DNA of 24,000 nt from Bdellovibrionales bacterium GWA2_49_15. GTDB lineage: Bacteria > Bdellovibrionota > Bacteriovoracia > Bacteriovoracales > Bacteriovoracaceae. A program made the translations under genes and the position numbers. Below are positions 3,195-21,853 of this stretch, one piece after another (the first letter of the stretch is position 1; each line of letters begins with the position of its first letter). Where the stretch lies: NCBI GenBank assembly GCA_001769855.1, contig MEPP01000018.1, positions 9,547-33,546 on the forward strand, written 5' to 3'. The notes under the pieces were generated by a model. It was not told the DNA's origin. It did no database searches and saw nothing but the letters and a program-made list of their open reading frames with translations.

Positions 3195-3196
3195 TT

Positions 3197-4083: not shown

Positions 4084-4338
4084 TTATTCGGATGCAGTGC
4101 CAGGTTTTTTCTTCAGCTCTTTTAAAATTTCATTTTCAAAATGTATAATTTTGGCCTTCTCGATGCGTGTTATGCGCTGAAAAACCTGTTTGAACCCTGT
4201 CTTCATCCACTGCAACTGCGTAGCATATTGAGAACAATATTTGCACATCATCAGATGCATTTTGAGTTCCAGCTTTTTCCCCCATGAAAGGTCTTCATCA
4301 GAACTCAAAGATCGTACAATTTCCTTACATGACAGCAT
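4084..4338 (-). CDS. Small soluble ZAS-type (zf-HC2, RsrA-like) anti-sigma factor
   Basis: The 84 aa protein has no TM segment. It carries Cys4 plus H-x3-C-x2-C (MHLMMCKYC). It lies 33 nt downstream of the ECF sigma gene on the same strand. Confidence 0.7.
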   Translation of the reverse strand: MLSCKEIVRSLSSDEDLSWGKKLELKMHLMMCKYCSQYATQLQWMKTGFKQVFQRITRIEKAKIIHFENEILKELKKKPGTASE

Positions 4339-4371: not shown

Positions 4372-4965
4372 TCAAGGCCTCGCTTTTCCCTCGATACATT
4401 CTCTCAGGCGATTTCGTGCTCGAAACAGGAGAACCCCTAGATTAGTGACAGTGACATTCAAAATATTGCAAATATCCGGGGAATCGTGATCGTCTATTTC
4501 CTTAAGGCAAAAGGCCATTCGTTGTGTGAGAGGAAGGCCATCCAAGCAATGCTCAATCAACTTCATGTTTTCAGTTGCTAAGATAAAACTTTCAGGGTCG
4601 ATAGGTGGTTTAGTCCATTTACCATTTTCATCAAAACGAGCTTCAACCACATCTTCTATGGGGTCATGGTTATGAGATTTTTTCTGCTCCCTCCGTTGTT
4701 CAGAGGCCTTGTTGTAGAGGATGCCAAACAGGAAAGTGCGAACGTGAGACTTCGCTTCAAATTTTGGGACGACATCATAGAAAGTCACCCAAACACTCTG
4801 CACAATTTCTCGGGCGATATTTGAATCAAAACCTAGCCCGAGGGCCCCTTTATACAAATGCTCCGTATAGGCCCGCACGACGGATTCGATCGCATCTGGA
4901 TCGCGGTTTGTTAATCGCCCTACAAACACACTCGATCGAAAATCTATTGAGTTTTCTTGTCCCAT
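4372..4965 (-). CDS. ECF-type RNA polymerase sigma-70 family factor
   Basis: A region-2-like segment reads AREIVQSVWVTFYDVVPKFE..SHVRTFLFGILYNKA. A region-4 HTH reads LPLTQRMAFCLKEIDDHDSPDICNILNVTVTNLGVLLFRARNRLRECI. At 197 aa it has the right size. Confidence 0.85.
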   Translation of the reverse strand: MGQENSIDFRSSVFVGRLTNRDPDAIESVVRAYTEHLYKGALGLGFDSNIAREIVQSVWVTFYDVVPKFEAKSHVRTFLFGILYNKASEQRREQKKSHNHDPIEDVVEARFDENGKWTKPPIDPESFILATENMKLIEHCLDGLPLTQRMAFCLKEIDDHDSPDICNILNVTVTNLGVLLFRARNRLRECIEGKARP

Positions 4966-4986: not shown

Positions 4987-5026
4987 TGTTTAGATATAAA
5001 CATAACCCAAAAAAAGCATCTAAACA
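4987..5026. promoter_or_regulatory. Perfect 9 bp inverted repeat TGTTTAGAT-N22-ATCTAAACA between marR-like and sigma genes
   Basis: Direct reading gives tgtttagat at 4987-4995 and atctaaaca at 5018-5026. The right arm overlaps the MarR-like stop codon at 5020-5022. Function is unknown; it could be an RNA hairpin or a protein-binding site. Confidence 0.4.
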
Positions 5027-5511
5027 ATACTCGTATTGATGCCTCGAAGAGTCCTTAAAAAATCTGGCGAGAGTCGTGGCATGAGCTTGGTAACACGTTT
5101 TATGTGGGGCGGGAGAATTTTTTCAAACAAGCGTTCTCCTTTCCGTGTCAGTTCCACGAGTTCTCGCCCGCCTCTTTCGCCTGTGGGAAGTGTCGTGGTT
5201 AGATGATCTGTCTCAAGGCGACGTAGAAAAGTGGAGATATTACCACGGGTCACACAGAGCCTTTGAGCAATATCAGATGCAGATAACGGGCCATAAAAAT
5301 AGACCAAAAACAGAATTTGAAAGCGTGAGATAGAGCAGTTTTCCTTCAGCAGCTCACGTTCTAATGTACGATATATCTTTTGAAATGATGCCATAAGCAC
5401 TCGCCAGCTTTCAACCTCCGGGAGTTTCAGTAGGTCATCAAGTTCGTGCTTTTTTTCACGTTCTCGGGCCCGAACTACTTTTGGGGGCGAAATGGTCTTT
5501 GATCTTTTCAA
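5020..5511 (-). CDS. MarR-family transcriptional regulator
   Basis: The winged-helix core reads ISRFQILFLVYFYGPLSASDIAQRLCVTRGNISTFLRRLETDHL...RELVELTRKGERLF. The start is uncertain. The ORF track start at 5511 is a TTG preceded by agagagga, and an internal ATG (Met40) is also possible. Confidence 0.75.
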   Translation of the reverse strand: MKRSKTISPPKVVRAREREKKHELDDLLKLPEVESWRVLMASFQKIYRTLERELLKENCSISRFQILFLVYFYGPLSASDIAQRLCVTRGNISTFLRRLETDHLTTTLPTGERGGRELVELTRKGERLFEKILPPHIKRVTKLMPRLSPDFLRTLRGINTSIV

Positions 5512-5591
5512 GTGTTCCGTTCCTCTCTTTACACATCATTGTCGATGAAATCGTACTTTGAACAACTTCCCCATGCAAGAGACATGAAGTT

Positions 5592-5855
5592 TCAAATACG
5601 GATTCTGCCTGCTATTCTTTCCGCCTCTTTTAATTTTTTAAAAACAGTTTCTTCGATCTCTGCTATTTGCTCTTTATCTACACGCATCGTTTTGGCAAAT
5701 AATGATTTTACCCTATGCTTCATGATCGTAAGATGAGTGGCATAGCTTGAGCAGTGTTGGCACATCAGAAGGTGCATTTTAAGCTCAGCCTTTTTCATTA
5801 ATGAAAGGCTTTCACCCGAATTTAAAATATGCACAATCTCTTTACAAGGCAGCAC
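5592..5855 (-). CDS. Second small soluble ZAS-type (zf-HC2) protein, paralog of 4084..4338
   Basis: The 87 aa protein has a GTG start 3 nt after the DUF547 stop. It has the same Cys4 plus H-x3-C-x2-C (MHLLMCQHC) and no TM segment. My hand alignment to the other copy gives about 39 of 76 identical positions. Confidence 0.65.
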   Translation of the reverse strand: MLPCKEIVHILNSGESLSLMKKAELKMHLLMCQHCSSYATHLTIMKHRVKSLFAKTMRVDKEQIAEIEETVFKKLKEAERIAGRIRI

Positions 5856-5858
5856 TAC

Positions 5859-6722
5859 TTATTCTCCATTAAGTGACCAATCGTAATCGAGATAACTTAT
5901 ATTAGCTTCCCTGATTACTTTCTTTTCATCAGGCGTCCTTCCCATTCGAGCGGCGACAAAAGATTGCACTGAACTCTCTCCATTTTTAAAATCAGCACCG
6001 TACCACTTAAAAATAGTCGAAAGATGAAGTTCAGAGGAATCAACAATAAAGCGATTGGAACTGGAATTATTAAGGAAACCATAAGTGGCATCTTCTAATT
6101 GTTCATTTAATCTCTTTGCAATATAGGCCTCTCTCCTTAGGGCCGGACAGCTTTTCGATGCACAGTTTACGGCAAAATGAATGCGGGGATCGTTGAATTT
6201 TTTAAGCCTCGAACGCAAAGATGGCTCAAGTTCTTGCACTGCCTTTACATCCTGGCGAATCAACCCCTGTTCAATATTATCCAAGTTACGTTTTGCACCA
6301 AGAAGTGTAAAAAAGTGTTTTTTCCAGGGACTGGAAAACAAACTTCCAATCTCCTTGATCGACTTGACGGGATAATGGTCTAAGATTAATTTAACCGTAA
6401 AGGCATTGTAGGCATTAATAAGGAAAGCAAGTTGTTCTTCGCGATTAAAAACGTGAAAACTGGACTGTGTTACGGATTCCAGTTCCTTTAAATATAACTC
6501 AAATTCTGATGATGAGTTGACCAGTTTGCCATAGGCCATCTGAGTTCCGTGTTCTTGGCTAGAAATATATTTTTTAAGAATACTGGTCCAACTTGAATGA
6601 TTATGATCAAAGTGATGTATTTCTTTAGCATGGGAACTTTCAAGTTCCGTGGCAAAACTTGAAGTAAGAACAACAAGGATTATCCCGCACAAGAGTGGTT
6701 TCATCATCATAAATTGGTTCAT
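5859..6722 (-). CDS. Secreted DUF547 domain-containing protein
   Basis: It has a signal peptide (KPLLCGIILVVLTSSFA). The DUF547 signature stretch reads LINAYNAFTVKLILDHYPVKSIKEIG...PWKK..F.LLG...LDNIE...DPRIHFAVNCASKSCPAL...FKWYGADF. A good RBS (aaagggga) lies 6 nt upstream of the ATG. Confidence 0.8.
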   Translation of the reverse strand: MNQFMMMKPLLCGIILVVLTSSFATELESSHAKEIHHFDHNHSSWTSILKKYISSQEHGTQMAYGKLVNSSSEFELYLKELESVTQSSFHVFNREEQLAFLINAYNAFTVKLILDHYPVKSIKEIGSLFSSPWKKHFFTLLGAKRNLDNIEQGLIRQDVKAVQELEPSLRSRLKKFNDPRIHFAVNCASKSCPALRREAYIAKRLNEQLEDATYGFLNNSSSNRFIVDSSELHLSTIFKWYGADFKNGESSVQSFVAARMGRTPDEKKVIREANISYLDYDWSLNGE

Positions 6723-6777
6723 CGGTCATCCCCTTTAATTTTCTTCTTAGCTATTAGTGAAGGTAGGCATGTTATTC

Positions 6778-6794
6778 TTACAAAACGCTTGTAA
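6778..6794. promoter_or_regulatory. 17 bp palindrome TTACAA-aacgc-TTGTAA in the divergent promoter region (candidate MarR-type operator)
   Basis: Direct reading gives ttacaa at 6778-6783 and ttgtaa at 6789-6794, which are reverse complements. The site lies between the DUF547 operon (start 6722) and the arsenosugar-type operon (start 6904). A sigma70-like TTGAAA (6815-6820)-N18-TAATAA (6839-6844) follows. Confidence 0.3.
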
Positions 6795-6903
6795 CTGCCT
6801 GAAAAAAGGACTGATTGAAAAAAAATGCATCTGCTGTGTAATAAAATGCGGCCTCACCTCACTTACCAGTTGAAGGCAATTTTTTTAAAAGGGGTAATAG
6901 GGC

Positions 6904-9066
6904 ATGCAAAGGTCACTCATCTTCAAGATAATCACTTTCGCACTTCTCGTGACCCTCATCGCTCTCTTCTGGGTGTTTAGGCTAGATCGCTTTTTTACCT
7001 TGGATAATTTGAAAATCAGCAGGGAGGCCTTGCGTCAGTATTATCAGATACGGCCCGTCTTTGTGATCGCAAGCTATTTCACTGTCTATGTCGTATCAAC
7101 CGCCCTTTCTTTGCCAGGAGCAACGATCCTAACTCTGGCCGGAGGTGCAATTTTTGGTCTTTGGACAGGCACCCTCATTGTTTCTATTGCCAGCACATTG
7201 GGCGCAACAGCTGCGTTTTTAATGTCGCGCTTTTTACTCCATGATTTTGTTCAAAAACGTTTTGCGGACAAGCTTGCTTCTTTTAATGCTGGAGTTAAGA
7301 AGGATGGGGTCTTCTATCTATTTTCGTTGCGCCTGGTTCCTGTTTTCCCTTTTTTCCTGATCAACCTTGTAATGGGATTAACTGCCATTCCCGTCAAGAC
7401 GTTCTTTTTTATCAGTCAGCTTGGGATGCTCGCCGGGACCTTTGCCTACGTCAATGCGGGGACACGTTTAAGTAAAATAGATTCACTTAAAGGGATTCTT
7501 TCCTTTGAAGTACTATCGGCCTTTGCCTTTATTGGCATTCTTCCCCTCCTATCTAAATTCATGATTGATTTTTATCGCTCTCAAAAGGTCTTGCGCCACT
7601 TCCAAAGGCCCAAAATCTTCGAATACAATGTGGTTGTCATCGGTGCAGGTTCCGCAGGCCTGGTGGCTTCCTACTTCGCTTCTGCTGTCAAGGCCAAAGT
7701 TGCCTTAGTCGAGAAGCATAGAATGGGTGGAGACTGCTTAAATACCGGCTGTGTCCCAAGTAAGGCCCTTATTCGCTCTGCCAAAATTGTTTCCAATATT
7801 CGCCATGCAACTGACTTTGGGTTAAACGAGATTAAACCAGAATTCGATTTTGCCAGAATCATGGAGCGAGTTCAGAGAGTTGTGAGAACTGTTGCCCCCC
7901 ATGACTCGACTGAACGCTACTCTAAATTGGGAGTAGAATGTTTTCAGGGTGACGCGAAGATTATTTCGCCCTATGAAGTCAAAGTCGGCGAGGAAATTCT
8001 TACCGCACGAAATATTATTGTGGCCACAGGTGCCAGTCCCTTGGTGCCACCGATCCCAGGACTAAACGATATTACCTATCTAACCAGCGACACGATCTGG
8101 AATTTACGTCAGCTTCCCAAAAAATTTCTTATCTTGGGTGGTGGCCCAATTGGTTGCGAGTTGGCCCAGGCGTTTGCTCGCTTTGGATCGGAAGTGCATA
8201 TCGTGGAGATGGCCCCACGGCTCATGATCCGTGAAGATGCCGATGTGTCTGAACATATTACCCAACGTTTTACCAATGATGGAATTACCGTTCATGTGGG
8301 AACGAAGGCAAAAGGGGTTAGGCGTGACGGAGAAACAAAATATTTATTGTGTGAGAAAAATGGGAATGAAACACGCATAGAGTTTGATGAAATTCTTTTG
8401 GCCTTGGGACGAAAAGCGAATGTAAGTGGTTTTGGCTTGGCAGAATTGGGGGTTGAAATTTCCACGCGCGGAACCATCGACCATGATGAATTCTTGAGAA
8501 CAAATTACCCCAATATTTACGTGTGTGGAGATGTTGCGGGCCCATATCAATTTACTCACACCGCCGCCCATCAGGCTTGGTATGCCATGGTTAATGCACT
8601 TTTTGCTCCCTTTAAGAAATTTAAAGTTGATTACCGTGTGATTCCATGGTGCACCTTTACAGACCCCGAAGTGGCACGTGTGGGAGTGAACGAACAAGAG
8701 GCCAAGGAAAAGGGGATTGCTTGTCAGGTGTCGAAGTATGCGATCGATGATCTCGATCGAGCCATTGCCGAAGACCAGGCCTATGGTTTTGTGAAGGTCC
8801 TCACGATTCTGGGTACAGATAAAATCTTAGGCGTAACCATCGTTGGCCCCCATGCAGGTGACATCATTGCTGAATATGTGGTTGCTATGAAACACGGTAT
8901 CGGTATGAACAAGATTCTCGGGACGATTCACATTTATCCAACCTTTGCCGAGGCCAACAAATACGTAGCGGGAGTTTGGAAACGGGCAAATGCTCCTCAG
9001 TTTGCACTAAACATGCTTGCACGTTTTCATGCGTGGCGAAGAGGAAATGCAAAGGGGATTGTATGA
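6904..9066 (+). CDS. Fusion protein: N-terminal DedA/TVP38/TMEM64 (SNARE-associated) membrane domain plus C-terminal FAD-dependent pyridine nucleotide-disulfide oxidoreductase (class I, CxxxxC)
   Basis: The N-terminal ~230 aa are polytopic and carry the DedA-type motif LPGATILTLAGGAIFG. The rest has the FAD fold YNVVVIGAGSAGLVAS, the redox disulfide GGDCLNTGCVPSK, the NAD fold LILGGGPIGCELAQ, and the dimerisation-domain pair HIYPTFAE. It has no C-terminal Cys pair and no NmerA domain. Confidence 0.85.
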   Translation: MQRSLIFKIITFALLVTLIALFWVFRLDRFFTLDNLKISREALRQYYQIRPVFVIASYFTVYVVSTALSLPGATILTLAGGAIFGLWTGTLIVSIASTLGATAAFLMSRFLLHDFVQKRFADKLASFNAGVKKDGVFYLFSLRLVPVFPFFLINLVMGLTAIPVKTFFFISQLGMLAGTFAYVNAGTRLSKIDSLKGILSFEVLSAFAFIGILPLLSKFMIDFYRSQKVLRHFQRPKIFEYNVVVIGAGSAGLVASYFASAVKAKVALVEKHRMGGDCLNTGCVPSKALIRSAKIVSNIRHATDFGLNEIKPEFDFARIMERVQRVVRTVAPHDSTERYSKLGVECFQGDAKIISPYEVKVGEEILTARNIIVATGASPLVPPIPGLNDITYLTSDTIWNLRQLPKKFLILGGGPIGCELAQAFARFGSEVHIVEMAPRLMIREDADVSEHITQRFTNDGITVHVGTKAKGVRRDGETKYLLCEKNGNETRIEFDEILLALGRKANVSGFGLAELGVEISTRGTIDHDEFLRTNYPNIYVCGDVAGPYQFTHTAAHQAWYAMVNALFAPFKKFKVDYRVIPWCTFTDPEVARVGVNEQEAKEKGIACQVSKYAIDDLDRAIAEDQAYGFVKVLTILGTDKILGVTIVGPHAGDIIAEYVVAMKHGIGMNKILGTIHIYPTFAEANKYVAGVWKRANAPQFALNMLARFHAWRRGNAKGIV

Positions 9067-10037
9067 TAAATGAGTTAATTTTTCCATTCACACAGATGTT
9101 GGGGAAAAATAATCTAGAACTCACTCGCAACCCAACAGAGATTTTACAAATTAATGTGGGCAAGCTGTGCAATCAGGTTTGTCATCATTGTCATGTGGAA
9201 GCAGGGCCAAACCGCACGGAAATAATGACTAAAAGTGTCGTCAATCGCCTGTTAGAACTTTTGGCCGGGAGTCGCAGTATTCACACAGTGGATTTAACCG
9301 GCGGGGCCCCAGAATTGAATCCCCATTTCAGGACGTTAGTGAGGGAATGTCGCAAGCTCAACAAAAAGGTTATCAATCGATGTAACTTGACCGTGCTTTT
9401 TGAAGATGGCCAGGAGGATACGGCCGGTTTTTTACGGGAGCATCGAGTCCATGTGGTGGCCTCGCTTCCCTGCTATTCAAAAGAAAACTTGGAAAAGCAA
9501 CGCGGGGACGGAGTGTTCGATAAGAGCATCCGCGCACTTCGGATGCTCAATAGTCTAGGATACGGACTAAGAGAGGAGGCACCGCTGTTGGATCTTGTCT
9601 ACAATCCGCTAGGGGCGTTTCTGCCACCCACTCAGGAGACACTTGAGAATAAATATAAAGAAGAGCTGCGAAATCTTTTTGGCATCGAATTTAATCACCT
9701 TTACACCATTACCAATATGCCGATTAAGCGTTTTCTGCGAGAGCTTGAAAGAGCAGGAAAATTACAAAAATATATGGAATTACTCCTTGCCAATTTTAAT
9801 CCTAAGGCCGCTTTAGGAGTTATGTGTCGCTCACTTATCTCTGTGAGCTGGGATGGGAAAATCTTTGACTGTGACTTTAATCAGATGTTGGACCTTCCCC
9901 TTGTTGGAGTGACCAAAACTATCTGGGACATCAAAAGCTTTGCGGAAATTGAGATGAAACCTATTGCTCTAGGCAATCACTGCTATGGCTGTACAGCAGG
10001 AGCAGGAAGCTCTTGCAGTGGCACGGTAGCGAAATAA
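9063..10037 (+). CDS. arsS: Arsenosugar-biosynthesis radical SAM protein ArsS (TIGR04167-type radical SAM with C-terminal Cys-rich domain)
   Basis: The ATG at 9063 overlaps the upstream stop (ATGA), and the ORF track start at 8976 would overlap the previous gene by about 90 nt. The radical SAM cluster motif is CNQVCHHC within INVGKLCNQVCHHCHVEAGP. The C-terminal motif is HCYGCTAGAGSSCSG, the Cys version of the position that is Sec in some family members. Confidence 0.8.
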   Translation: MINELIFPFTQMLGKNNLELTRNPTEILQINVGKLCNQVCHHCHVEAGPNRTEIMTKSVVNRLLELLAGSRSIHTVDLTGGAPELNPHFRTLVRECRKLNKKVINRCNLTVLFEDGQEDTAGFLREHRVHVVASLPCYSKENLEKQRGDGVFDKSIRALRMLNSLGYGLREEAPLLDLVYNPLGAFLPPTQETLENKYKEELRNLFGIEFNHLYTITNMPIKRFLRELERAGKLQKYMELLLANFNPKAALGVMCRSLISVSWDGKIFDCDFNQMLDLPLVGVTKTIWDIKSFAEIEMKPIALGNHCYGCTAGAGSSCSGTVAK

Positions 10038-10058
10038 TAAAAGAAAGTGGAGGTGTAT

Positions 10059-11114
10059 ATGGCCAAAAATAATGATAACCCGATTGAAAGTGTCAAAGAG
10101 TATTATGGCGACGTTTTGAAATCAACTAAGGACCTAAAGACGAGTGCCTGTTGTGTTAACGGTGCTCCTCCTGCGCGAATTCGCGCCATTTTAAAAGACA
10201 TTCACCCAGAAGTTTTAGATAAGTTTTATGGTTGCGGTTCGCCTATTCCACCAGCGTTGGAGGGCAAAACTGTCCTTGATCTCGGCTCAGGAACAGGAAG
10301 GGATTGTTTTATTCTCTCCAAGCTTGTAGGAGGCACAGGCAAAGTCATTGGTGTTGATATGACTCAAAACCAGATTGATACCGCTAACAAGCACCTTGAT
10401 TTTCATACCAAGCAATGGGGGTATGCTCGGCCTAATGTGGTTTTTCGTCAGGGATATATCGAAGATTTGGAAAGTGTTGGGATTAAAAATGAATCCGTCG
10501 ATATTGTAATCTCAAACTGTGTTCTCAATCTTTCACCTAATAAGGAACGAGTATTTGCGGAAATATTTCGCGTCTTAAAGCCAGGAGGCGAGCTTTATTT
10601 CTCTGATGTTTTTGCCGATCGCCGAATTCCAAAAGAGCTGACAACTGATCCACTTCTTCTGGGTGAGTGTTTAAGTGGTGCCCTTTATATTGAGGATTTT
10701 CGTAGGATTCTTTCGCGACTTGGATGTCATGATTATCGGACTCTTTCAAAGTCGCAGATTGCCATTTCTGACTCTGAAGTTGAACACAAAATTGGAATGA
10801 TTAATTTTAACTCCATTACTATCCGTGCGTTTAAACTCGATCTTGAAGATCGTTGCGAAGACTACGGGCAAGTTGCCTACTATAAAGGCAGCATTGATGA
10901 GTGTCCGAATATTTTTACTCTGGATGATCATCATATCTTTACAAAGGATCAGCCGATGTTGATCTGTAAAAATACCGCTTCCATGCTGTCGCAGACACGT
11001 TTTGCCAAACACTTTAAAATAATAGGTGAGGCAAATAAGCATTTCGGTCCTTTCAATTGTGAGATGAATGGAGTTTCCAAGGTCGCAAACATGGCATTGT
11101 CCCCTTGCTGTTAG
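10059..11114 (+). CDS. arsM: Arsenite S-adenosylmethionine methyltransferase ArsM
   Basis: The ATG at 10059 lies 5 nt after gtggagg, and the track start at 10047 is a GTG inside that RBS. The SAM motif is VLDLGSGTGRDCF. Four Cys sit in the contexts expected for ArsM: TSACCV, FYGCGSP, SNCVLNL and LGECLSG. At 351 aa it has the right size. Confidence 0.85.
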   Translation: MAKNNDNPIESVKEYYGDVLKSTKDLKTSACCVNGAPPARIRAILKDIHPEVLDKFYGCGSPIPPALEGKTVLDLGSGTGRDCFILSKLVGGTGKVIGVDMTQNQIDTANKHLDFHTKQWGYARPNVVFRQGYIEDLESVGIKNESVDIVISNCVLNLSPNKERVFAEIFRVLKPGGELYFSDVFADRRIPKELTTDPLLLGECLSGALYIEDFRRILSRLGCHDYRTLSKSQIAISDSEVEHKIGMINFNSITIRAFKLDLEDRCEDYGQVAYYKGSIDECPNIFTLDDHHIFTKDQPMLICKNTASMLSQTRFAKHFKIIGEANKHFGPFNCEMNGVSKVANMALSPCC

Positions 11115-11124
11115 TTGATAGAAT

Positions 11125-11856
11125 ATGCACAACAAAGTAAAAGATTCGCTCAGTGTTATTATTCCTGTGGGCCCTGGCGAAGCGGCCTATTGCAAACTCT
11201 TGCAGGATTTATTTAATCGGCCCTTTGAACAAAGGATCGAAGTTATTTTCTCGGCAATAGAACAACCTCCTTCAGATTTAAATCAGAGCATCCCTCCTCA
11301 TGTTAAGTTCATTTGGATAGCTGGAAAAAAGGGTCGGGCCGAGCAGTTGAACCGAGGCGCCAAAGCAGCGATGGGTGAGACTTTATGGTTTGTCCACGCT
11401 GATAGTCGCTTTGATAATCCGCAAATCATGAAAATGCTCACAACAAAATGTGGACAGAAAAAAAACTCATTTTTCTATTTCGATTTACGTTTTTCTTCGG
11501 ATGGCCCACGCTTGATGCCTCTTAATCAATTAGGTGTATGGATTCGTTCACATATCTTTGGGATTCCTTTTGGGGATCAGGCCTTTGTCATTAATCGTCA
11601 TCTCTTCTGGCAATTAGGTGGTTTTCGTGAAGATGTTCCCTATGGCGAAGATCATCTGTTTGTGTGGGCAGCAAGACACGCCGGTTTTCCCATTCAGCCG
11701 ATTGGACATTATGTTTTCACCAGTGCACGACGCTATGAGCTTCATGGTTGGGGAAAGACAACCATCAAACATATGTGGCTGACATTCCTCCAGACCATAC
11801 CTCTGGCCATAAATCTTGTCTTCAAGAAACGATTGAAGAAAGGAAAGCAACTATGA
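11125..11856 (+). CDS. GT2-like transferase, TIGR04283-type (rSAM/selenodomain-associated, arsenosugar-cluster transferase 2)
   Basis: It shows LSVIIPVGPGE, LWFVHADSRF and IPFGDQAFVINRHLFWQLGGFRE..PYGEDHLF, the pattern of this GT2 subfamily. It sits between arsM and the DUF2064 gene, as in known clusters. Confidence 0.7.
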   Translation: MHNKVKDSLSVIIPVGPGEAAYCKLLQDLFNRPFEQRIEVIFSAIEQPPSDLNQSIPPHVKFIWIAGKKGRAEQLNRGAKAAMGETLWFVHADSRFDNPQIMKMLTTKCGQKKNSFFYFDLRFSSDGPRLMPLNQLGVWIRSHIFGIPFGDQAFVINRHLFWQLGGFREDVPYGEDHLFVWAARHAGFPIQPIGHYVFTSARRYELHGWGKTTIKHMWLTFLQTIPLAINLVFKKRLKKGKQL

Positions 11857-12569
11857 ATGCGGCCTTGGCCATCTTCGTGAAAACTCCTGGATTGTCGCCA
11901 GTCAAAACACGATTGGCTGCCAGTACAAACTCAAACTTTGCAGAGGAGTTCTATCTTCAGGCCATCGGGATTACACGTCTCGTTGTTTCAGCAGCGACTC
12001 AGGCGCAACCCGAGATAAACCCTTACTGGGCAGTGGCAGAGCAAGACGGCCTTGGACATTTTCTATGGAGTGACTTCTCCCGGCTAGGCCAGGGTGATGG
12101 CCCTCTCGGCGATCGTCTTGCATTCGTTTATAATGATCTCAAGAGACATCATGATGCTGTTATTTTTATTGGTGCCGATTGTCCCCTTCTCACTGCTCAG
12201 CACATCATCAGGGCATACGACCTTTTGGCCACAAGGCCAAGACAAGATCATTTCGTTATCGGACCGGCCCAAGACGGTGGCTTCTATCTTTTTGCAGGTG
12301 GGAAGCATATCTCCAAAGAAGAATGGAGTAGTGTTCAATATAGTCAAAGTGATACTAAAAACCAACTAAGCAAAATTTTAAATAAACGAGGAAGAGTCAT
12401 GGAACTTGAACCATTATCTGACATAGATACACACGATGATCTGATCGGTCTTGCTCAGACAATTGTGACAAAAGAAAATCTCCTTGATGTTCAGATTAAG
12501 CTACTTAATTGGATAGCAAAGAGTGAAAAGGAAAAAATAACTTCCTCTGCCGGGAACAAAAAATATTAA
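11853..12569 (+). CDS. DUF2064 / TIGR04282-type transferase (rSAM/selenodomain-associated, arsenosugar-cluster transferase 1)
   Basis: The ATG at 11853 overlaps the upstream stop (ATGA), and the track start at 11748 lies inside the previous gene. The N-terminus reads ALAIFVKTPGLSPVKTRLA. It also shows GDRL, VIFIGADCP and IGPAQDGGFYLFA, all typical of DUF2064. Confidence 0.75.
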   Translation: MNAALAIFVKTPGLSPVKTRLAASTNSNFAEEFYLQAIGITRLVVSAATQAQPEINPYWAVAEQDGLGHFLWSDFSRLGQGDGPLGDRLAFVYNDLKRHHDAVIFIGADCPLLTAQHIIRAYDLLATRPRQDHFVIGPAQDGGFYLFAGGKHISKEEWSSVQYSQSDTKNQLSKILNKRGRVMELEPLSDIDTHDDLIGLAQTIVTKENLLDVQIKLLNWIAKSEKEKITSSAGNKKY

Positions 12570-12677
12570 TGTTTAAATCTAATGTCTCAGGATTTTATGT
12601 GCAACACTCACAATCGCTTAATATTTCAGGTCTAAGGATGCGAAAGAACGCTTTAAGAAGAAGTTAGATATCATTTA

Positions 12678-12705
12678 TTGACCTCCTCCATCACAATGTT
12701 ATCAT
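12678..12705 (+). promoter_or_regulatory. Sigma70-like promoter TTGACC-N16-TATCAT upstream of PAP2 gene
   Basis: Direct reading gives ttgacc at 12678-12683 and tatcat at 12700-12705. A perfect 13 bp palindrome ATCAAC-T-GTTGAT follows at 12722-12734, then GGAG at 12735-12738, then the ATG at 12747. Confidence 0.4.
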
Positions 12706-12746
12706 ATCGTCGACTCAGGTTATCAACTGTTGATGGAGATTATTAA

Positions 12747-13427
12747 ATGGTGCAAAACTTTAAAATTACAAACTTAAGTATTCTATTTCTTCTGCTTGTC
12801 GGCCTCTCTTCCATTACCGGTAATCTGGCCCAGGCACAAGGACATCATCACCATGTTCTCTGTCATCTTAAAAAGTTTTTAGGCCCCTACCCTGCCAAGG
12901 GATCGGCGGAGGAGGCCGAAGACTTTGCCTTCCTTTTGTATCTTCAAGAAGTCAGAACACCTGAGCAGTGCGCTGAGGCGGCAAAGGAAGTTCATGTTAG
13001 CTTGGAGACTTTTTTCGGTGGCGAAAATGGTCCACTGTCGCCAGCGGAAGTTAAACGTCTTAAGTTTTTCCTCTACTATCATTTTCTTAAAGCTGGCATC
13101 CATTCCACGGTTGGCAAACAAATTTTTAAACGTCCACGCCCCTATGTCGCCAATCCAGCTCTTGTTCCCTGTATCGAAAAGGCAAAATCCTATGCCTACC
13201 CAAGCGGTCACGCCGCAGTCGCAAGAGTTTTTGCCCGAGTGCTTGCCAAGAAATTTCCTGAACGTGCCGCTCTTTTCTTAGAGCGCGGAGACGCTGTTGG
13301 TATGAATCGAATGTTAGGTGGCGTCCATCACCCCACTGATATTGACGCAGGGCAAAGGCTCGGTGATGCCCTCACTCATCGCCTTTTTTCTTCACCAGAA
13401 TTTTTACAAAAGTTAGATAAGCTTTAA
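12747..13427 (+). CDS. Secreted PAP2-superfamily (class A acid phosphatase-like) phosphatase
   Basis: It has a signal peptide. All three PAP2 motifs are present: K-x6-RP (KQIFKRPRP), PSGH, and R-x5-H-x3-D (NRMLGGVHHPTD). Confidence 0.85.
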   Translation: MVQNFKITNLSILFLLLVGLSSITGNLAQAQGHHHHVLCHLKKFLGPYPAKGSAEEAEDFAFLLYLQEVRTPEQCAEAAKEVHVSLETFFGGENGPLSPAEVKRLKFFLYYHFLKAGIHSTVGKQIFKRPRPYVANPALVPCIEKAKSYAYPSGHAAVARVFARVLAKKFPERAALFLERGDAVGMNRMLGGVHHPTDIDAGQRLGDALTHRLFSSPEFLQKLDKL

Positions 13428-13536
13428 AAAACTACTGACACTTCATTCCACCCTTGATGCAGGCGGAGACTCTGCAAGGCTTCTGCATTCTCTATCCCGC
13501 CAAGCTGCAAGCACGAGGCAGGGACGAGGACCCGAT

Positions 13537-14073
13537 TTACGAATTTGACTTGATGGCATCAGTTGTAAGCAGGTCCTCAAAAAAGTAAGCTGAAAGTTCA
13601 CTCCTGGATTTTACACCTGCCTTCTTATAGATAGTATTGGCATGATTTCTGATGGTTCGATCGGAGCAATTTCTTATATCGGATATTTCTTTGAGACTTA
13701 GGCCTTTGATAATAAGAAGAGCGATATCACGTTCGGAGGATGTGAGTTCCCAGTCGGTAAATGTACTTTCAAGGTGCTGTTGAAAGTCTTTGGCGAAATA
13801 GGCAGATCTTTTCTTCCAACGGACCAAATCGGCTTCAAGCTGACCCATTGCATTCCTGAAGCGATGACGATTGTCGACGAATAAGCTCCAGCCAATCACA
13901 GAGCCAACAGATACGGCTGCTACCATCCCAATCTCGGCCAATACATTCCTAAATGATAAAAAGGAAAATCCTCCGTCCTGAAGTTTGATTTGAACATCTC
14001 CGACGATGAGCAGGGCAAATGCACCAATTGCTATAGCTAAGCAGATAAGTTTTACTAGATTAGATTTTGTCAT
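13537..14073 (-). CDS. Membrane-anchored LuxR/FixJ-family HTH regulator (two N-terminal TM helices, no receiver domain)
   Basis: The TM segments are LVKLICLAIAIGAFALLIV and IGMVAAVSVGSVIGWSLFV. The C-terminal LuxR HTH reads LTSSERDIALLIIKGLSLKEISDIRNCSDRTIRNHANTIYKKAGVKSRSEL. Confidence 0.75.
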   Translation of the reverse strand: MTKSNLVKLICLAIAIGAFALLIVGDVQIKLQDGGFSFLSFRNVLAEIGMVAAVSVGSVIGWSLFVDNRHRFRNAMGQLEADLVRWKKRSAYFAKDFQQHLESTFTDWELTSSERDIALLIIKGLSLKEISDIRNCSDRTIRNHANTIYKKAGVKSRSELSAYFFEDLLTTDAIKSNS

Positions 14074-14224
14074 GTATTACGCGATAAGTTGGCGGCATTT
14101 TCCTAAATGTCACGGCATATTTTTGCTCATAATGACTAATGACTCATATCTATTTTTAAGTATGACTGTCAATATTCTTCGATCAACTAGTTGCCGAGCA
14201 GCATTAGAGATTAAAGGATATGCA

Positions 14225-15079
14225 GTGAAAGAGAGCTTCCGTCTACCACTCCTGGTCATCTTTTTACTCGGATCTATCAACCTGGGTATGCCGAGTTTTT
14301 CGGCCGAACCAGTTGAAAAAAATGAGGACCTAAGTACGCTTAAATTTGAAGCAAAAGACGATTTTCTTCAATCCATGAAGTGGGCCTACCAAGGGAGTTA
14401 TCTCCAATTTTCGTCTACACAAAATTTAGTCTTTACCGCTGCTGCCATAGGTGCGATTGGATATTTTATTTACAATGATAAGATGATTTCAGAGAAAGCT
14501 GTTAGAGAGAATAAAAATGAAGGATTCATCCGTCTTGTAAGTAAGAGCAGTATTTTCTTCAACACTCCTATTCTGCCCATGACTTTTTATTACTGGGGTC
14601 GAACTCACCAAGATGCAAAGATGGTAAGGTTTTCTCAAGAGTATCTGGCAGCTTTATTTTTGACTCTGGCGGAAGCAGCGGCCATATCCATTATTCCGGT
14701 GCACCAACGACCGGACAAAAAAGATTTATCCTTTATAGAGACAGCTTTTCGAGGACAGTCCTCCTTTCCCTCAGGTCATGTGATTGGCTACACAGTTCTG
14801 GGTTTTAAAAGTTTGCAATTCTACGGGCCAGAGTACGCGATCCTACCATTAGGATTGGCAGTGGCCACGGCCTTTGAAAGAGTACATTCTGAGAAACACT
14901 ATGCTTCCGATGTGATCGCCTCCAGCTTCATTGCACTATTGGCTTCCGAGGGCGTCAGGTATGCTTCCAACTACGATAAAAACCACCCCATTTATGAATG
15001 GATTTTTAAACACGAATTCACACTTCAATATATAAGAAGTGATCAAGTGCCTGGTCTACTGGCAACAGTAACTTTCTAA
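14225..15079 (+). CDS. Membrane PAP2-superfamily lipid phosphatase
   Basis: I prefer the GTG at 14225, which follows aaagga and gives VKESFRLPLLVIFLLG.. as a signal or TM start. The ATG at 14162 is the alternative, and the ORF track start at 14006 overlaps the divergent LuxR gene. It shows PSGH (SSFPSGHVIGY) and R-x5-H-x3-D (ERVHSEKHYASD). The first motif is degenerate (..VHQRP). Confidence 0.7.
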   Translation: MKESFRLPLLVIFLLGSINLGMPSFSAEPVEKNEDLSTLKFEAKDDFLQSMKWAYQGSYLQFSSTQNLVFTAAAIGAIGYFIYNDKMISEKAVRENKNEGFIRLVSKSSIFFNTPILPMTFYYWGRTHQDAKMVRFSQEYLAALFLTLAEAAAISIIPVHQRPDKKDLSFIETAFRGQSSFPSGHVIGYTVLGFKSLQFYGPEYAILPLGLAVATAFERVHSEKHYASDVIASSFIALLASEGVRYASNYDKNHPIYEWIFKHEFTLQYIRSDQVPGLLATVTF

Positions 15080-15090
15080 AAGGTTATTTA

Positions 15091-16188
15091 ATGATTATCC
15101 TTTTCTGGTTGCTCTCATTTAGTGTTCACGCTACTGATTCTGTTCTACCGGCAAATGTTTTTTGGATTCATTATAAGGCCCAGGTTTCGATCGGCGAGGT
15201 TCAGGCCAACTTGAATCGCCACCATCTAGTCGCACGAGAAATACAGTCAAATCCTTTTCGTGCCCATGTATCGAAATTCTTGACACCTGAACTGGAAGAA
15301 AAACTAAAAAAAGATATCTATGTGGCGCAAATTTCCTACGACAATACCCCTCTCTATCCCGACCATTTTTATTCACCCTTTGGATTTACTCCAAAACAAA
15401 GAGATAACTGGACTACCGGATGGATCATTGCAGTTCCCAGTATTTTACTTATTTTTGGATCATCCGTTTGGGATTGGGGAAATACAGGTGCGCATATGGG
15501 GTTTGGAAATGAGGGATGGTACGGGCAACATTCATATAGTGGCGGCGCGGATAAATTCGGACACATGACCAGTCATTATATTGAAACTCGAATGACTACC
15601 TGGCTCGCCTTACAGGCCGGACATGACATAAAAACGGCCCGAAAAATCGGACTTTATACCGGAGCTTTTGTGGGATTGGCCTTAGAGGTGGGAGATGGTT
15701 TTAGCAAATATCGTTTCTCAACTGAAGATCTCTTTATGGATTCCATTGGTATTTTTTCCGCTTGGTTGCTGGATACTTATCCGGCGCTCGATGAATTTGT
15801 AGGTATCCGGTGGCAGTGGTGGCCAAGTCATGAGTATCGCGATTCAAGAAATACCGCCAAAGTCGATGTGACAAGTGACTATAGTGGCCAAAAAGTATTC
15901 TTAAGTTTTAAAGCAGCAGGGGTGCCGGTTTTAAGAGAAAATATCTTTACGCGATATCTAACTTTAGATTTTGGTTTTTTTACCCGCGGCTACGAACCTG
16001 ACTTCACTCCAGATGATAAAACTGACAACATTCAGAGGCGTTATTTCTCTGCTGGCATCGGTATCAATTTAGGAACCCTAATTTTTGATTCCAATCCTGA
16101 TTCAACTGCGGTTCGCACTGCCGGATCGATTACTAAATATTGGATACCTCCTAATGTCACCCATGCGGTCATCCGTGAAGAGCTATAG
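15091..16188 (+). CDS. Secreted protein with a DUF2279 (YfiM-like) core and beta-rich C-terminal extension
   Basis: It has a signal peptide (LFWLLSFSVHA). The core NEGWYGQHSYSGGADKFGHMTSHY...GLALEVGDGFSKYRFSTEDLFMDSIGI resembles the DK-x2-H ... E-x2-D ... S-x2-D-x3-D-x2-G pattern of YfiM/DUF2279. This assignment is made from memory only. Confidence 0.4.
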   Translation: MIILFWLLSFSVHATDSVLPANVFWIHYKAQVSIGEVQANLNRHHLVAREIQSNPFRAHVSKFLTPELEEKLKKDIYVAQISYDNTPLYPDHFYSPFGFTPKQRDNWTTGWIIAVPSILLIFGSSVWDWGNTGAHMGFGNEGWYGQHSYSGGADKFGHMTSHYIETRMTTWLALQAGHDIKTARKIGLYTGAFVGLALEVGDGFSKYRFSTEDLFMDSIGIFSAWLLDTYPALDEFVGIRWQWWPSHEYRDSRNTAKVDVTSDYSGQKVFLSFKAAGVPVLRENIFTRYLTLDFGFFTRGYEPDFTPDDKTDNIQRRYFSAGIGINLGTLIFDSNPDSTAVRTAGSITKYWIPPNVTHAVIREEL

Positions 16189-16235
16189 GAGGATGGTCTA
16201 TTGCAGGAAGAAGCCGTGCAGGATTTGGAGCGAGA

Positions 16236-19057: not shown

Positions 19058-19226
19058 TGGGCACCTGAACGCTTTTTTGCTACACGCCCGGATCGGGTTG
19101 TTCATAAGATATTTTTCGAATGCATTGAGCATCATACCAGATTACCTCCATTGCTAAGGCGTTACACAAAACCATGAAACATGAGGTCAGCCACAATCAT
19201 GTCGAATTTGATTTGGGATGATTTCC

Positions 19227-19511
19227 TCATATTCGTCCCTTCTTTTCTTCCTCGTTTAAAACTACCTCTCGATGTAGCTCTCGGATTTGGTCGCGAAGAA
19301 TGGCCAGTACCTTGTGACCAGTTTTGGTCAGGGAGTATTCCTTGCGCGCGCGCAGGCCGCTGTTTGGATCGGTTTCTTTGCGGTATGGTGGAGAATGTGA
19401 ACTTTCCAGAATAAAAGTAAAATTTCCCGTTGAAGATTTTTCATGGATATTGCGAAAACCGTAGTCGATATAGGTATTTATGTCAAGCCATGGGATGACT
19501 CTAGTTAGCAT
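19227..19511 (-). CDS. PadR-like winged-helix transcriptional regulator
   Basis: The 94 aa protein shows YGFRNIHEKSSTGNF...ILE...RARKEYSLTKTGHKVL. This resembles PadR (YGYEI..., LE..G, RKYY.LT..G). It sits upstream of chrA on the same strand. The N-terminus is short for the family. Confidence 0.5.
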   Translation of the reverse strand: MLTRVIPWLDINTYIDYGFRNIHEKSSTGNFTFILESSHSPPYRKETDPNSGLRARKEYSLTKTGHKVLAILRDQIRELHREVVLNEEEKKGRI

Positions 19512-20266: not shown

Positions 20267-20277
20267 TGGAGGTCAAA

Positions 20278-21852: not shown

Positions 21853-21853
21853 A

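What the first reader, a model, noticed from the sequence alone, without database searches (positions are those of the whole stretch)
6904..12569. Complete, translationally coupled arsenosugar-type (ArsS/ArsM) organoarsenical operon with uncharacterised partner enzymes
**Seen in sequence.** Five co-directional genes have minimal spacing, with ATGA stop/start overlaps at 9063-9066 and 11853-11856.
- ArsS-like radical SAM: CNQVCHHC plus the C-terminal CTAGAGSSC domain.
- ArsM: all four expected Cys contexts.
- A TIGR04283-like GT2 transferase.
- A DUF2064/TIGR04282-like transferase.
- The operon is headed by a DedA::disulfide-reductase fusion.

**Established knowledge.** ArsM plus ArsS are the steps assigned in cyanobacteria to making the 5'-deoxyadenosyl-dimethylarsenical precursor of arsenosugars. 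The two transferases and the DedA/reductase partner are linked to ArsS only by comparative genomics (the 'rSAM/selenodomain-associated' set), and their reactions are not defined.

**Inference.** This diderm, which shows no photosynthesis genes in view, probably makes an arsenosugar, an arsenosugar-lipid or a related organoarsenical. The end product and its physiological purpose (detoxification, membrane lipid or bioactive compound) are unknown.
Basis: partly seen in the sequence, partly recalled or inferred. Interest (0 to 1): 0.75.

Follow-up and report, generated by a model that had tools for sequence, protein, structure and literature searches.

The report
Common ArsM/ArsS arsenosugar gene cluster
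This is a real five-gene cluster for turning arsenic into sugar-linked organoarsenic compounds, but the same cluster occurs in hundreds of non-photosynthetic bacterial species, so this copy is an ordinary and probably not self-sufficient member of a known kind.

Summary
Five co-directional genes at 6904-12569 have ATGA stop/start overlaps at 9063 and 11853 and gaps of 21 and 10 nt. They encode a DedA::flavoprotein fusion, ArsS, ArsM, a TIGR04283 GT2 and a TIGR04282/DUF2064 protein.

- **Family tests.** ArsS passes its NCBIfam equivalog cutoff (442.8 vs 300). ArsM misses every NCBIfam cutoff but matches solved ArsM structures (E 1e-107) with all four Cys contexts. Both transferases fall just under cutoff (166 vs 182; 118 vs 134), as do syntenic orthologues elsewhere.
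- **Distribution.** The source is a Bdellovibrionales MAG. ArsS relatives gave at least 584 matches in a one-genome-per-species collection. The full five-gene set recurs in 22 of 51 well-flanked loci.
- **"Complete" is not supported.** A third of related clusters carry an MTA-phosphorylase paralogue, and many carry PiT and ArsC. This window has none.
- **New leads.**
  - DUF2064 folds like CofC/FbiD nucleotidyltransferases, not glycosyltransferases.
  - It is fused in-frame to the GT2 in 11 of 49 loci.
  - The reductase has Tyr where disulfide reductases have the catalytic His.

Proposed route: DDMAA, then arsenoribose-1-P, then NDP-arsenoribose, then a β-riboside.

Verdict: new member of a known kind, moderate interest.

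The parts
6904..9066 (+). DedA (VTT-domain membrane protein, residues ~1-235) fused to an FAD/NAD(P)H pyridine-nucleotide-disulphide-oxidoreductase-type flavoprotein (residues ~240-713). It has the redox pair GGDCLNTGCVPSK, Tyr in place of the catalytic His (HIYPTFAE) and no C-terminal Cys pair.
   Evidence: Pfam: VTT_dom 88.6 bits, Pyr_redox_2 228 bits, Pyr_redox_dim 109 bits. NCBIfam best hit is NF004991 at 530 vs cutoff 620; MerA scores 404 vs 454. PDB matches to MerA and LipDH are about equally good. The motif is conserved in 48 homologues, and alignment to LipDH HAHPT is. The two parts are fused in 36 of 43 loci and split in 7.
9063..10037 (+). ArsS, a radical SAM enzyme that adds the 5'-deoxyadenosyl group of SAM to dimethylarsenite. 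It has the CX3CX2C cluster motif and the C-terminal DUF3641 Cys motif. Its start overlaps the upstream stop (ATGA).
   Evidence: TIGR04167 equivalog 442.8 bits vs cutoff 300; the next family scores 38 bits. Radical_SAM plus DUF3641. The sequence is 100% identical to a protein of Bdellovibrionales bacterium GWA2_49_15. The reaction is described in PMC13598754.
10059..11114 (+). ArsM, the SAM-dependent arsenite methyltransferase. All four catalytic/As-binding Cys contexts are present. GGAGG lies 6 nt upstream of the ATG.
   Evidence: PDB 5EVJ E 1.4e-107 over residues 3-335; CmArsM 4FR0 E 6e-91. All NCBIfam ArsM models are below cutoff: 191.9 vs 263, 165 vs 500, 117 vs 400. The same holds for the Rhodanobacter orthologue.
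11125..11856 (+). TIGR04283-type GT2 (GT-A fold) glycosyltransferase with an invariant H-x-D metal motif, an E-D pair and a long C-terminal helix.
   Evidence: TIGR04283 166.4 bits vs cutoff 182, with no competing family. The AF2 model has pLDDT 93.2. Foldseek hits are Leloir GT-A enzymes: K4CP, WrtF, PcManGT, GalNAc-T2, TarP and BcsA. Invariant residues are listed.
11853..12569 (+). TIGR04282/DUF2064 protein, predicted here to be a nucleotidyltransferase (CofC/FbiD/MobA-like) rather than a glycosyltransferase. Its start overlaps the GT2 stop (ATGA).
   Evidence: TIGR04282 118 bits vs cutoff 134. DUF2064 63.6 bits. PDB 3CGX E 1.5e-5. The AF2 model has pLDDT 93.6. The top named Foldseek hits after 3CGX are nucleotidyltransferases. 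It is fused in-frame to the GT2 in 11 of 49 loci.
5859..6722 (-). Divergently transcribed DUF547 protein, an exported protein with a conserved C-x4-C-P motif. It is an accessory partner found in about a quarter of related clusters.
   Evidence: PF04784 101.6 bits. It lies next to the DedA-fusion gene in L002, L003 and L004 and within 8 kb of ArsS in 12 of 51 loci. All 15 homologues have hydrophobic signal-peptide-like N-termini (judged by eye), and C187, C192 and P193 are conserved. It has no PDB sequence relative.

Best explanation
This is the five-gene core of the widespread ArsM/ArsS organoarsenical (arsenosugar-type) cluster, here in a Bdellovibrionales MAG.

**Steps established for the families**
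- ArsM methylates As(III) twice to dimethylarsenite.
- ArsS uses a SAM-derived 5'-deoxyadenosyl radical to make 5'-deoxy-5'-dimethylarsinoyl-adenosine (DDMAA), an arsenic analogue of methylthioadenosine (MTA).

**Steps inferred here**
1. Adenine is removed from DDMAA by phosphorolysis, giving 5-deoxy-5-dimethylarsinoyl-alpha-ribose-1-phosphate. A third of related clusters encode an MTA phosphorylase paralogue for this. One cluster also encodes a nucleoside hydrolase and an MTR-kinase-like enzyme. This window encodes neither, so a gene elsewhere in the genome must do this step.
2. The DUF2064 protein is a CofC/FbiD-like nucleotidyltransferase. It converts that sugar-1-phosphate to an NDP-arsenoribose.
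3. The tightly coupled GT2 (an inverting family) transfers the arsenoribosyl group to a hydroxyl acceptor. That acceptor is probably a glycerol moiety and possibly a lipid head group. The product would be the beta-riboside found in natural arsenosugars.

**Speculative**
- The DedA::flavoprotein is a membrane-anchored NAD(P)H-dependent reductase. It may keep methylarsenicals trivalent or re-reduce ArsM's dithiols.
- Its DedA half may move a lipid or an oxyanion across the membrane.
For: **Membership**
- ArsS passes TIGR04167.
- ArsM aligns to solved ArsM structures with all four Cys contexts.
- ArsS chemistry is DMAs(III) to DDMAA and is redox-neutral (PMC13598754).
- arsS and arsM are co-transcribed in Synechocystis, and arsS is the first committed arsenosugar step (bioRxiv 10.1101/2022.09.23.509062).

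**Conserved synteny across phyla, out of 51 well-flanked loci**
- DUF2064: 40.
- GT04283: 38.
- DedA plus flavoprotein: 33.
- ArsM: 26.
- Full five-gene set: 22.

**Adenine-removal step**
- An MTAP paralogue sits inside the Bacteriovoracia cluster L002 and passes its cutoff (TIGR01694 292 vs 274.85). Pfam PNP_UDP_1 genes of the same kind lie in the Parachlamydiales clusters L003 and L004.
- Homologues of this gene lie near ArsS in 17 of 51 loci.
- L002 also carries an MTR-kinase-like gene and a RihC-like nucleoside hydrolase.

**DUF2064 as a nucleotidyltransferase**
- The model is confident (pLDDT 93.6).
- The best solved matches after 3CGX are CofC/FbiD guanylyltransferases, then KdsB, GlmU and IspD. 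None of the named top-50 hits is a glycosyltransferase.
- Invariant K10, K18 and R20, plus D109, D190 and D192, echo FbiD's three-aspartate, two-Mg2+ motif (PMC6450877).

**GT2 as a true glycosyltransferase**
- GT-A Leloir matches and invariant H-x-D and E-D residues.

**Coupling of the two transferases**
- In-frame fusion in 11 of 49 loci and overlapping stop/start in 31 of 49.
Against: - No experiment exists on this locus or on any TIGR04282 or TIGR04283 protein in the searchable literature.
- The window lacks the adenine-removing enzyme, so steps 1-3 above depend on an unseen gene.
- The closest characterised relatives of DUF2064 activate three-carbon phospho-acids (PEP, 3-PG), not sugar-1-phosphates.
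- The correspondence of the three Asp residues to FbiD is by pattern and spacing, not by residue-level superposition.
- ArsM and both transferases are below NCBIfam cutoffs.
- Half of the ArsS loci have no adjacent ArsM.
- The acceptor and the final product are unknown.
Confidence: 0.6

Rival explanations
1. The DUF2064 protein activates the aglycone rather than the sugar. Like CofC/FbiD, it would make an NMP-linked three-carbon phospho-compound, such as a glycerol-phosphate or phosphoglycerate derivative. This would later form the phosphodiester of phosphate-type arsenosugars or arsenosugar phospholipids. The GT2 would take its ribosyl donor from elsewhere, possibly DDMAA itself with adenine as the leaving group.
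For: - The nearest characterised structural relatives use PEP, 2-phospholactate or 3-phosphoglycerate (PMC6450877).
- Two thirds of the clusters, including this window, lack an MTAP paralogue. A route that does not need ribose-1-phosphate would explain that.
Against: - GT-A/GT2 enzymes normally use NDP- or polyprenyl-phospho-sugars.
- The frequent fusion of GT2 to DUF2064 fits donor synthesis followed by donor use.
- An MTAP paralogue or an MTR-kinase-like gene inside some clusters points to a ribose-1-phosphate intermediate.
Confidence: 0.15
2. The cluster is only a detoxification unit. ArsM and ArsS convert toxic As(III) and DMAs(III) to inert DDMAA or volatile methylarsines. The transferases and the DedA-flavoprotein would serve an unrelated envelope function and are neighbours for other reasons.
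For: - ArsM confers arsenite resistance when expressed in E. coli.
- The window lies among metal and sulfur stress genes: a chromate transporter, ArsR-rhodanese and ZnuA.
Against: - Association with the transferases recurs in 38-40 of 51 loci across phyla, with overlapping reading frames and fusions. That is hard to explain without a shared pathway.
- arsS mutants of Synechocystis are not arsenite-sensitive.
- A phosphate/arsenate-type PiT transporter inside related clusters suggests uptake rather than export.
Confidence: 0.1
3. The cluster acts on another metalloid, such as Se, Sb or Te, or on a non-metalloid substrate. The arsenic naming would then be an over-extension from the cyanobacterial enzymes.
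For: - TIGR04167, TIGR04282 and TIGR04283 were first defined as the 'rSAM/selenodomain-associated' set, and JGI names still say so.
- Some family members are selenoproteins (PMC9312934).
Against: - ArsS scores far above the equivalog cutoff.
- The adjacent methyltransferase matches arsenite methyltransferases with all As-binding Cys contexts.
- ArsC-type arsenate reductase is linked in 9 of 51 loci.
- The selenium link concerns Sec as a residue of the enzyme, not the substrate.
Confidence: 0.05

Closest known systems
Synechocystis sp. PCC 6803 arsM-arsS arsenosugar genes (Xue et al. 2019, as cited in bioRxiv 10.1101/2022.09.23.509062; ArsS chemistry reviewed in PMC13598754)
   Same: Adjacent, co-directional ArsM and ArsS. 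ArsS belongs to the same NCBIfam equivalog family, TIGR04167. ArsM has the same four Cys contexts.
   Different: - The gene order here is ArsS then ArsM.
- The ArsM is unlike the cyanobacterial 'AsSugarArsM' model (117 vs 400 bits) and closest to algal ArsM structures (5EVJ, E 1e-107).
- The host is a non-photosynthetic Bdellovibrionales MAG.
- The two genes are embedded with three further partner genes.
NCBIfam 'arsenosugar biosynthesis' set: TIGR04167, TIGR04282 and TIGR04283 (formerly the rSAM/selenodomain-associated transferases 1 and 2)
   Same: Same three families, same tight linkage, and the same names on relatives in RefSeq/GenBank.
   Different: - The window's two transferases score 16 bits below each cutoff.
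- NCBIfam calls TIGR04282 a glycosyltransferase, whereas its predicted fold and invariant residues match nucleotidyltransferases.
CofC/FbiD plus CofD/FbiA of coenzyme F420 biosynthesis
   Same: - A MobA-like nucleotidyltransferase makes an NMP-activated phospho-compound that a partner transferase consumes at once.
- FbiD is inactive without FbiA (PMC6450877).
- That dependence resembles the fusions and overlapping frames of DUF2064 with the GT2.
   Different: - The partner here is a GT-A glycosyltransferase, not a CofD-type phosphotransferase.
- The substrate is presumed to be a sugar-1-phosphate.
- TIGR03552 CofC scores only 18.9 bits.
First steps of methionine salvage (MtnP, or MtnN plus MtnK)
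   Same: Related clusters carry an MTAP that passes TIGR01694, and one carries an MTR-kinase-like gene plus a nucleoside hydrolase. DDMAA is the arsenic analogue of MTA.
   Different: These genes are absent from this window. Their activity on DDMAA is untested.
Mercuric reductase MerA and dihydrolipoamide dehydrogenase
   Same: FAD/NAD(P)H fold, CxxxxC redox pair and dimerisation domain, with E about 1e-75 to 1e-80 to both. Tyr replaces the catalytic His, as in MerA.
   Different: - No C-terminal Cys pair and no NmerA domain.
- An N-terminal DedA membrane domain.
- A conserved basic C-terminal extension.
- Below the cutoffs of every NCBIfam model.

Membership tests
ArsS (TIGR04167, arsenosugar biosynthesis radical SAM protein) | Score above the curated equivalog cutoff over the full length | tested here: met
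   442.8 bits vs 300, covering model positions 2-302 of 303.
ArsS (TIGR04167, arsenosugar biosynthesis radical SAM protein) | CX3CX2C radical SAM cluster motif plus the C-terminal DUF3641 domain with a C-x2-C-x7-C/U motif | tested here: met
   CNQVCHHC and HCYGCTAGAGSSC are present. C36, C40, C43, C307, C310 and C318 are invariant in 16 homologues.
ArsS (TIGR04167, arsenosugar biosynthesis radical SAM protein) | Adenosylation of DMAs(III) to DDMAA | not testable with these tools
   The activity is known for the characterised enzyme only (PMC13598754).
ArsM (arsenite S-adenosylmethionine methyltransferase) | Score above an NCBIfam ArsM cutoff | tested here: not met
   - PRK11873: 191.9 vs 263.
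- NF040538: 165.4 vs 500.
- NF038099: 116.9 vs 400.
- The Rhodanobacter syntenic orthologue fails likewise.
ArsM (arsenite S-adenosylmethionine methyltransferase) | Full-length homology to structurally characterised ArsM, with the four conserved Cys (CmArsM C44, C72, C174 and C224 contexts) | tested here: met
   5EVJ E 1.4e-107 over residues 3-335; 4FR0 E 6e-91. TSAC, GCG, SNCV and GECL are aligned.
TIGR04283 family GT2 | Score above the curated cutoff | tested here: not met
   166.4 vs 182. Syntenic orthologues score 153-191 as separate genes and 116.8 for the GT2 half of the fused L030 protein. No other family competes.
TIGR04283 family GT2 | GT-A fold with a metal-binding D-x-D-type motif and linkage to ArsS | tested here: met
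   AF2 model pLDDT 93.2. Foldseek hits are GT-A glycosyltransferases. H91-x-D93 and E175-D176 are invariant. The gene lies near ArsS in 38 of 51 loci.
TIGR04282 / DUF2064 | Score above the curated cutoff | tested here: not met
   118 vs 134. Five syntenic orthologues score 113.8-131.4. The Pfam DUF2064 cutoff is passed (63.6 vs 25.8).
TIGR04282 / DUF2064 | Gene adjacent to TIGR04283 and ArsS | tested here: met
   - Near ArsS in 40 of 51 loci.
- Overlapping stop/start with the GT2 in 31 of 49 loci.
- Fused in-frame to the GT2 in 11 of 49 loci.
CofC/FbiD-type nucleotidyltransferase (works-like comparison, not membership) | MobA-like NTP-transferase fold with a three-aspartate, two-Mg2+ site | tested here: inconclusive
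   - The fold matches (Foldseek E 4e-9 to 2e-8, TM 0.61-0.64).
- Invariant D109, D190 and D192 fit the pattern (PMC6450877).
- No residue-level superposition was seen.
- TIGR03552 scores only 18.9 vs 105.
Classical disulfide reductase (LipDH/GR type) | Catalytic His-Glu dyad (H-P-T-x-x-E) in the interface domain | tested here: not met
   The window has Y-P-T-F-A-E where LipDH has H-P-T-M-S-E. The Tyr is present in all 12 most common motif variants among the 48 cluster-linked homologues.
Mercuric reductase MerA | C-terminal Cys pair and a score above TIGR02053 | tested here: not met
   404.5 vs 454.45. There is no C-terminal Cys pair, and the only universally conserved Cys are C279 and C284.

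The most novel reading that the evidence does not exclude
The TIGR04282/TIGR04283 pair may be an activate-and-transfer module that makes and uses a nucleotide-activated organoarsenical sugar, NDP-5-deoxy-5-dimethylarsinoyl-ribose. Such a metabolite has not been described in the literature I could search. It would be fed by MTA-salvage-like phosphorolysis of DDMAA and would deliver a beta-arsenoriboside to a glycerol or lipid acceptor. The DedA::MerA-like flavoprotein may be a membrane-bound reductase for methylarsenicals. If so, predatory and other heterotrophic bacteria, not only algae and cyanobacteria, would be sources of arsenosugars or arsenosugar lipids.
Probability: 0.3. Interest if true: 0.65.

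Novelty: new member of a known kind. Interest (0 to 1): 0.35.

Why it matters
The steps after DDMAA in arsenosugar and arsenolipid biosynthesis are still unassigned to enzymes. These compounds are major forms of arsenic in seafood and in the marine arsenic cycle.

This window adds no new kind of system. The comparison it prompted does give a concrete, testable enzyme order:
- an MTAP paralogue;
- then a CofC-like nucleotidyltransferase (DUF2064);
- then an inverting GT2.

It also suggests that TIGR04282 is misnamed as a glycosyltransferase. Finally, it points to culturable carriers of the same five-gene cluster, such as Rhodanobacter denitrificans and R. fulvus, in which the idea can be tested.

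Tried and rejected
1. **Promoter and terminator scan of 5500-13600.** Counts did not exceed shuffles, so it gave no operon boundaries.
2. **Rfam scan of the whole window.** No riboswitch or other RNA family was found.
3. **Literature searches.** I searched for the extended cluster, the TIGR accessions, DUF547 with arsenic, and arsenosugar phospholipid biosynthesis. No experimental work on the partner enzymes turned up. The library omits most subscription papers, including the primary Xue 2019 and Cheng 2021 reports.
4. **Unbiased all-vs-all ORF clustering of neighbourhoods.**
   - It was swamped by shadow ORFs in high-GC genomes.
   - After masking known genes it added only FA_hydroxylase (21 loci), DUF3047 (10 loci) and bufferin-like DUF692/DUF2063/DoxX neighbours.
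   - None of these is in the window.
5. **PAP2 gene at 12747-13427.** I considered it a sixth member and rejected it. It was found only in the same organism's contig L001, and it follows a 177-nt gap.
6. **PDB sequence searches.** Those for DUF547 and the GT2 found nothing. ArsS has no solved relative beyond the generic radical SAM core.
7. **Phylogeny against ArsL.** Not built. ArsS scores 442.8 bits to TIGR04167 and at most 38 bits to any other radical SAM model, so the assignment is not in doubt.
8. **Direct comparison with Synechocystis ArsS.** I could not obtain that sequence.

Full report
**1. What is in the sequence**

The region holds five co-directional ORFs:
- 6904-9066, 720 aa.
- 9063-10037, 324 aa from the ATG at 9063.
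- 10059-11114, 351 aa from an ATG that lies 6 nt after GGAGG.
- 11125-11856, 243 aa.
- 11853-12569, 238 aa.

The junction sequences show ATGA stop/start overlaps at 9063-9066 and 11853-11856. The other two junctions are gaps of 21 and 10 nt. Translational coupling is therefore plausible at two of the four junctions. Promoter and terminator scans were not enriched over shuffles, and no Rfam family matched.

The ArsS protein is 100% identical to a protein of "Bdellovibrionales bacterium GWA2_49_15". That record names the five products only generically: oxidoreductase, radical SAM protein, methyltransferase type 11 and two hypothetical proteins.

**2. Family tests**

| Protein | Result |
|---|---|
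| ArsS | Passes equivalog TIGR04167, 442.8 vs 300 bits. The next radical SAM model scores 38 bits. |
| Methyltransferase | Fails every NCBIfam ArsM cutoff: 191.9 vs 263, 165.4 vs 500, 116.9 vs 400. |
| Methyltransferase | Aligns end to end with solved ArsM structures (5EVJ E 1.4e-107; 4FR0 E 6e-91). TSAC, GCG, SNCV and GECL are conserved. |
| GT2 | TIGR04283, 166.4 vs 182 bits. |
| DUF2064 | TIGR04282, 118 vs 134 bits. |

I accept the methyltransferase as ArsM on the structural evidence. However, syntenic orthologues from Bacteriovoracia, Rhodanobacter, Parvibaculaceae and Gemmatimonadales score 153-191 and 113.8-131.4 bits, and no other family competes. The cutoffs are simply strict.

**3. 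How common it is**

Of these, 584 were confirmed as ArsS relatives. The 80 best came from Bdellovibrionota, Rhodanobacter and other Lysobacterales (including cultured strains), Myxococcota, Gemmatimonadota, Leptospira, Alphaproteobacteria, Acidobacteriota and a planctomycete.

I ran tblastn with the window's proteins and with extra proteins from a Bacteriovoracia relative. Among the 51 loci with at least 5 kb on both flanks, genes within 8 kb of ArsS were:
- DUF2064: 40.
- GT04283: 38.
- DedA plus flavoprotein: 33.
- ArsM: 26.
- PNP/MTAP: 17.
- PiT: 15.
- DUF547: 12.
- ArsC-type phosphatase: 9.

The full five-gene set occurs in 22 of the 51 loci. Several Rhodanobacter loci have exactly the window's gene order. 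The window is thus one instance of a recurrent cluster whose members NCBI already names "arsenosugar biosynthesis" proteins.

**4. Why "complete" is doubtful**

In Bacteriovoracia and Parachlamydiales relatives the cluster reads as follows:
- Divergent side: DUF547 and a second GT2.
- Main strand: DedA-flavoprotein, PiT, ArsS, ArsM, PNP_UDP_1, GT04283, DUF2064, then in some loci DUF3047 and ArsC.

The extra genes of locus L002 were identified:
- The PNP_UDP_1 gene passes the MTA phosphorylase equivalog (TIGR01694, 292 vs 274.85).
- The same locus has an MTR-kinase-like gene (133.6 vs 275), a RihC-like nucleoside hydrolase, a thioredoxin-type ArsC and a PiT-like transporter.

The ArsS product DDMAA (PMC13598754) is the arsenic analogue of MTA. 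These genes are therefore the obvious candidates for adenine removal and C1 phosphorylation. None of them, and no arsenic transporter or reductase, is in the 24-kb window. The pathway must be completed in trans, if it is completed at all.

**5. The two transferases**

- **DUF2064.**
  - An AlphaFold model built on 46 homologues is confident (pLDDT 93.6).
  - After the uncharacterised 3CGX, its best solved matches are 3-phosphoglycerate and PEP guanylyltransferases (7P97, 6BWG/6BWH, 2I5E). KdsB, GlmU, IspD and sugar-1-phosphate thymidylyltransferases follow. None of the named top-50 hits is a Leloir glycosyltransferase.
  - Invariant residues are K10, K18 and R20 in an N-terminal K-T-P-x5-K-T-R-L motif, D109 in G-x-D-x-P, and D190-x-D192.
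  - These resemble FbiD's three-aspartate, two-Mg2+ site at D116, D188 and D190 (PMC6450877). That match is by pattern and spacing only.
- **GT2.**
  - Its model (pLDDT 93.2) matches true GT-A glycosyltransferases.
  - H91-x-D93 and E175-D176 are invariant.
- **Coupling.**
  - The two genes are fused in one reading frame in 11 of 49 loci.
  - They overlap stop/start in 31 of 49 loci.

I therefore read the pair as an activate-then-transfer module. GT2 is an inverting family and MTAP gives an alpha-1-phosphate; both points are established knowledge, not tested here. The expected product is then a beta-riboside, which is the configuration of natural arsenosugars.

**6. The DedA fusion**

- DedA and the flavoprotein are fused in 36 of 43 loci and are separate neighbouring genes in 7. 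The association is therefore functional.
- The flavoprotein is about equally close to MerA and to LipDH.
- It keeps the CLNxGC redox pair in all 48 homologues.
- Where LipDH has the catalytic His (H-P-T-x-x-E), this protein has Tyr, as MerA does. It has no C-terminal Cys pair.
- "Disulfide reductase" is therefore not assured.
- ArsS turnover is redox-neutral, so the enzyme more likely serves arsenic redox state or ArsM thiol regeneration. This is speculation.

**7. Accessory and rejected parts**

- **DUF547 (5859-6722, minus strand)** recurs beside the cluster. Its N-terminus is hydrophobic and looks like a signal peptide in all 15 homologues, and it has a conserved C-x4-C-P motif.
- **PAP2 at 12747-13427** is not conserved elsewhere, so I exclude it.

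**8. Verdict**

- The locus is a new member of a known kind.
- The useful output is a testable enzyme order for the unassigned later steps, and a probable renaming of TIGR04282 as a nucleotidyltransferase.

Noticed in passing
window 4084-4338 (-) and 5592-5855 (-): Two small paralogous ORFs (84 and 87 aa, 49% identical, E 8e-26) carry an H-x3-C-x2-C motif of the anti-sigma zf-HC2 type. They bracket a MarR gene (5020-5511) and an ECF sigma factor gene (4372-4965). The second follows DUF547 after 3 nt, so DUF547 heads a minus-strand string of regulators that diverges from the arsenic cluster. Neither small ORF hit Pfam.
   Followed up: partly
window 12747-17843 (+): Envelope-lipid modification genes lie downstream of the cluster: two PAP2 phosphatases (12747-13427, 14006-15079), a DUF2279 lipoprotein (15091-16188) and an EptA-like phosphoethanolamine transferase (16236-17843). 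A LuxR-type regulator lies on the opposite strand (13537-14073). This set is not conserved next to ArsS elsewhere.
   Followed up: partly
window 17894-22975: A metal and sulfur stress set: chromate transporter (17894-19135, minus strand), ArsR-HTH::rhodanese fusion (19595-20266), DsrE-like protein (20266-20628), sulfide:quinone-reductase-like flavoprotein (20692-21852) and class-V aminotransferase/cysteine desulfurase (21821-22975).
   Followed up: no
window 2292-4039 (+): ZnuA-like periplasmic metal-binding protein and an ABC-3 permease. The 363-aa ORF at 1188-2279 and the 231-aa ORF at 23202-23897 (minus strand) have no Pfam match.
   Followed up: no
L015, L017, L024, L026, L029, L030, L041, L052, L064, L068, L078 (e.g. 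L030 11804-13213): Natural in-frame fusions of the TIGR04283 GT2 (N-terminal) with the TIGR04282/DUF2064 domain (C-terminal) occur in 11 of 49 loci, mostly in Bdellovibrionota. The database protein P0244 (403 aa, PF09837 plus PF00535) also combines the two domains.
   Followed up: yes
L003 and L004 (Parachlamydiales MAGs) vs L002/L005 (Bacteriovoracia MAG): MAGs assigned to Parachlamydiales carry the cluster in the same gene order as Bacteriovoracia. Both ArsS proteins are about 67-70% identical to the window's ArsS. This suggests horizontal transfer or mis-binning.
   Followed up: no
e.g. L070 11882-12715 (-); 21 loci, mostly Lysobacterales: A fatty-acid-hydroxylase/sterol-desaturase family membrane protein (PF04116, 96.6 bits) sits immediately downstream of DUF2064 in many loci. 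DUF3047 (PF11249) recurs in 10 loci. Both hint at a lipid or envelope destination. Neither is in the window.
   Followed up: partly
L026/L047 (Bacteriovorax STB_52) and L056/L078 (Bacteriovoracia CA_2019_TPBF_111): Some single MAGs hold two ArsS loci. In Bacteriovorax STB_52 one locus is full and the other lacks ArsM and the DedA fusion. In CA_2019_TPBF_111 both loci are full.
   Followed up: no
L013, L022, L036, L040, L046, L053, L069, L074: Bufferin-like genes (DUF692-like, DUF2063-like, DoxX and a sigma factor) lie within a few kb of the arsenic cluster in several loci. L002 also has a weak BufA1 hit. This suggests shared metal-stress islands. Only the DoxX assignment was checked against Pfam, and that match was below the gathering score.
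   Followed up: no
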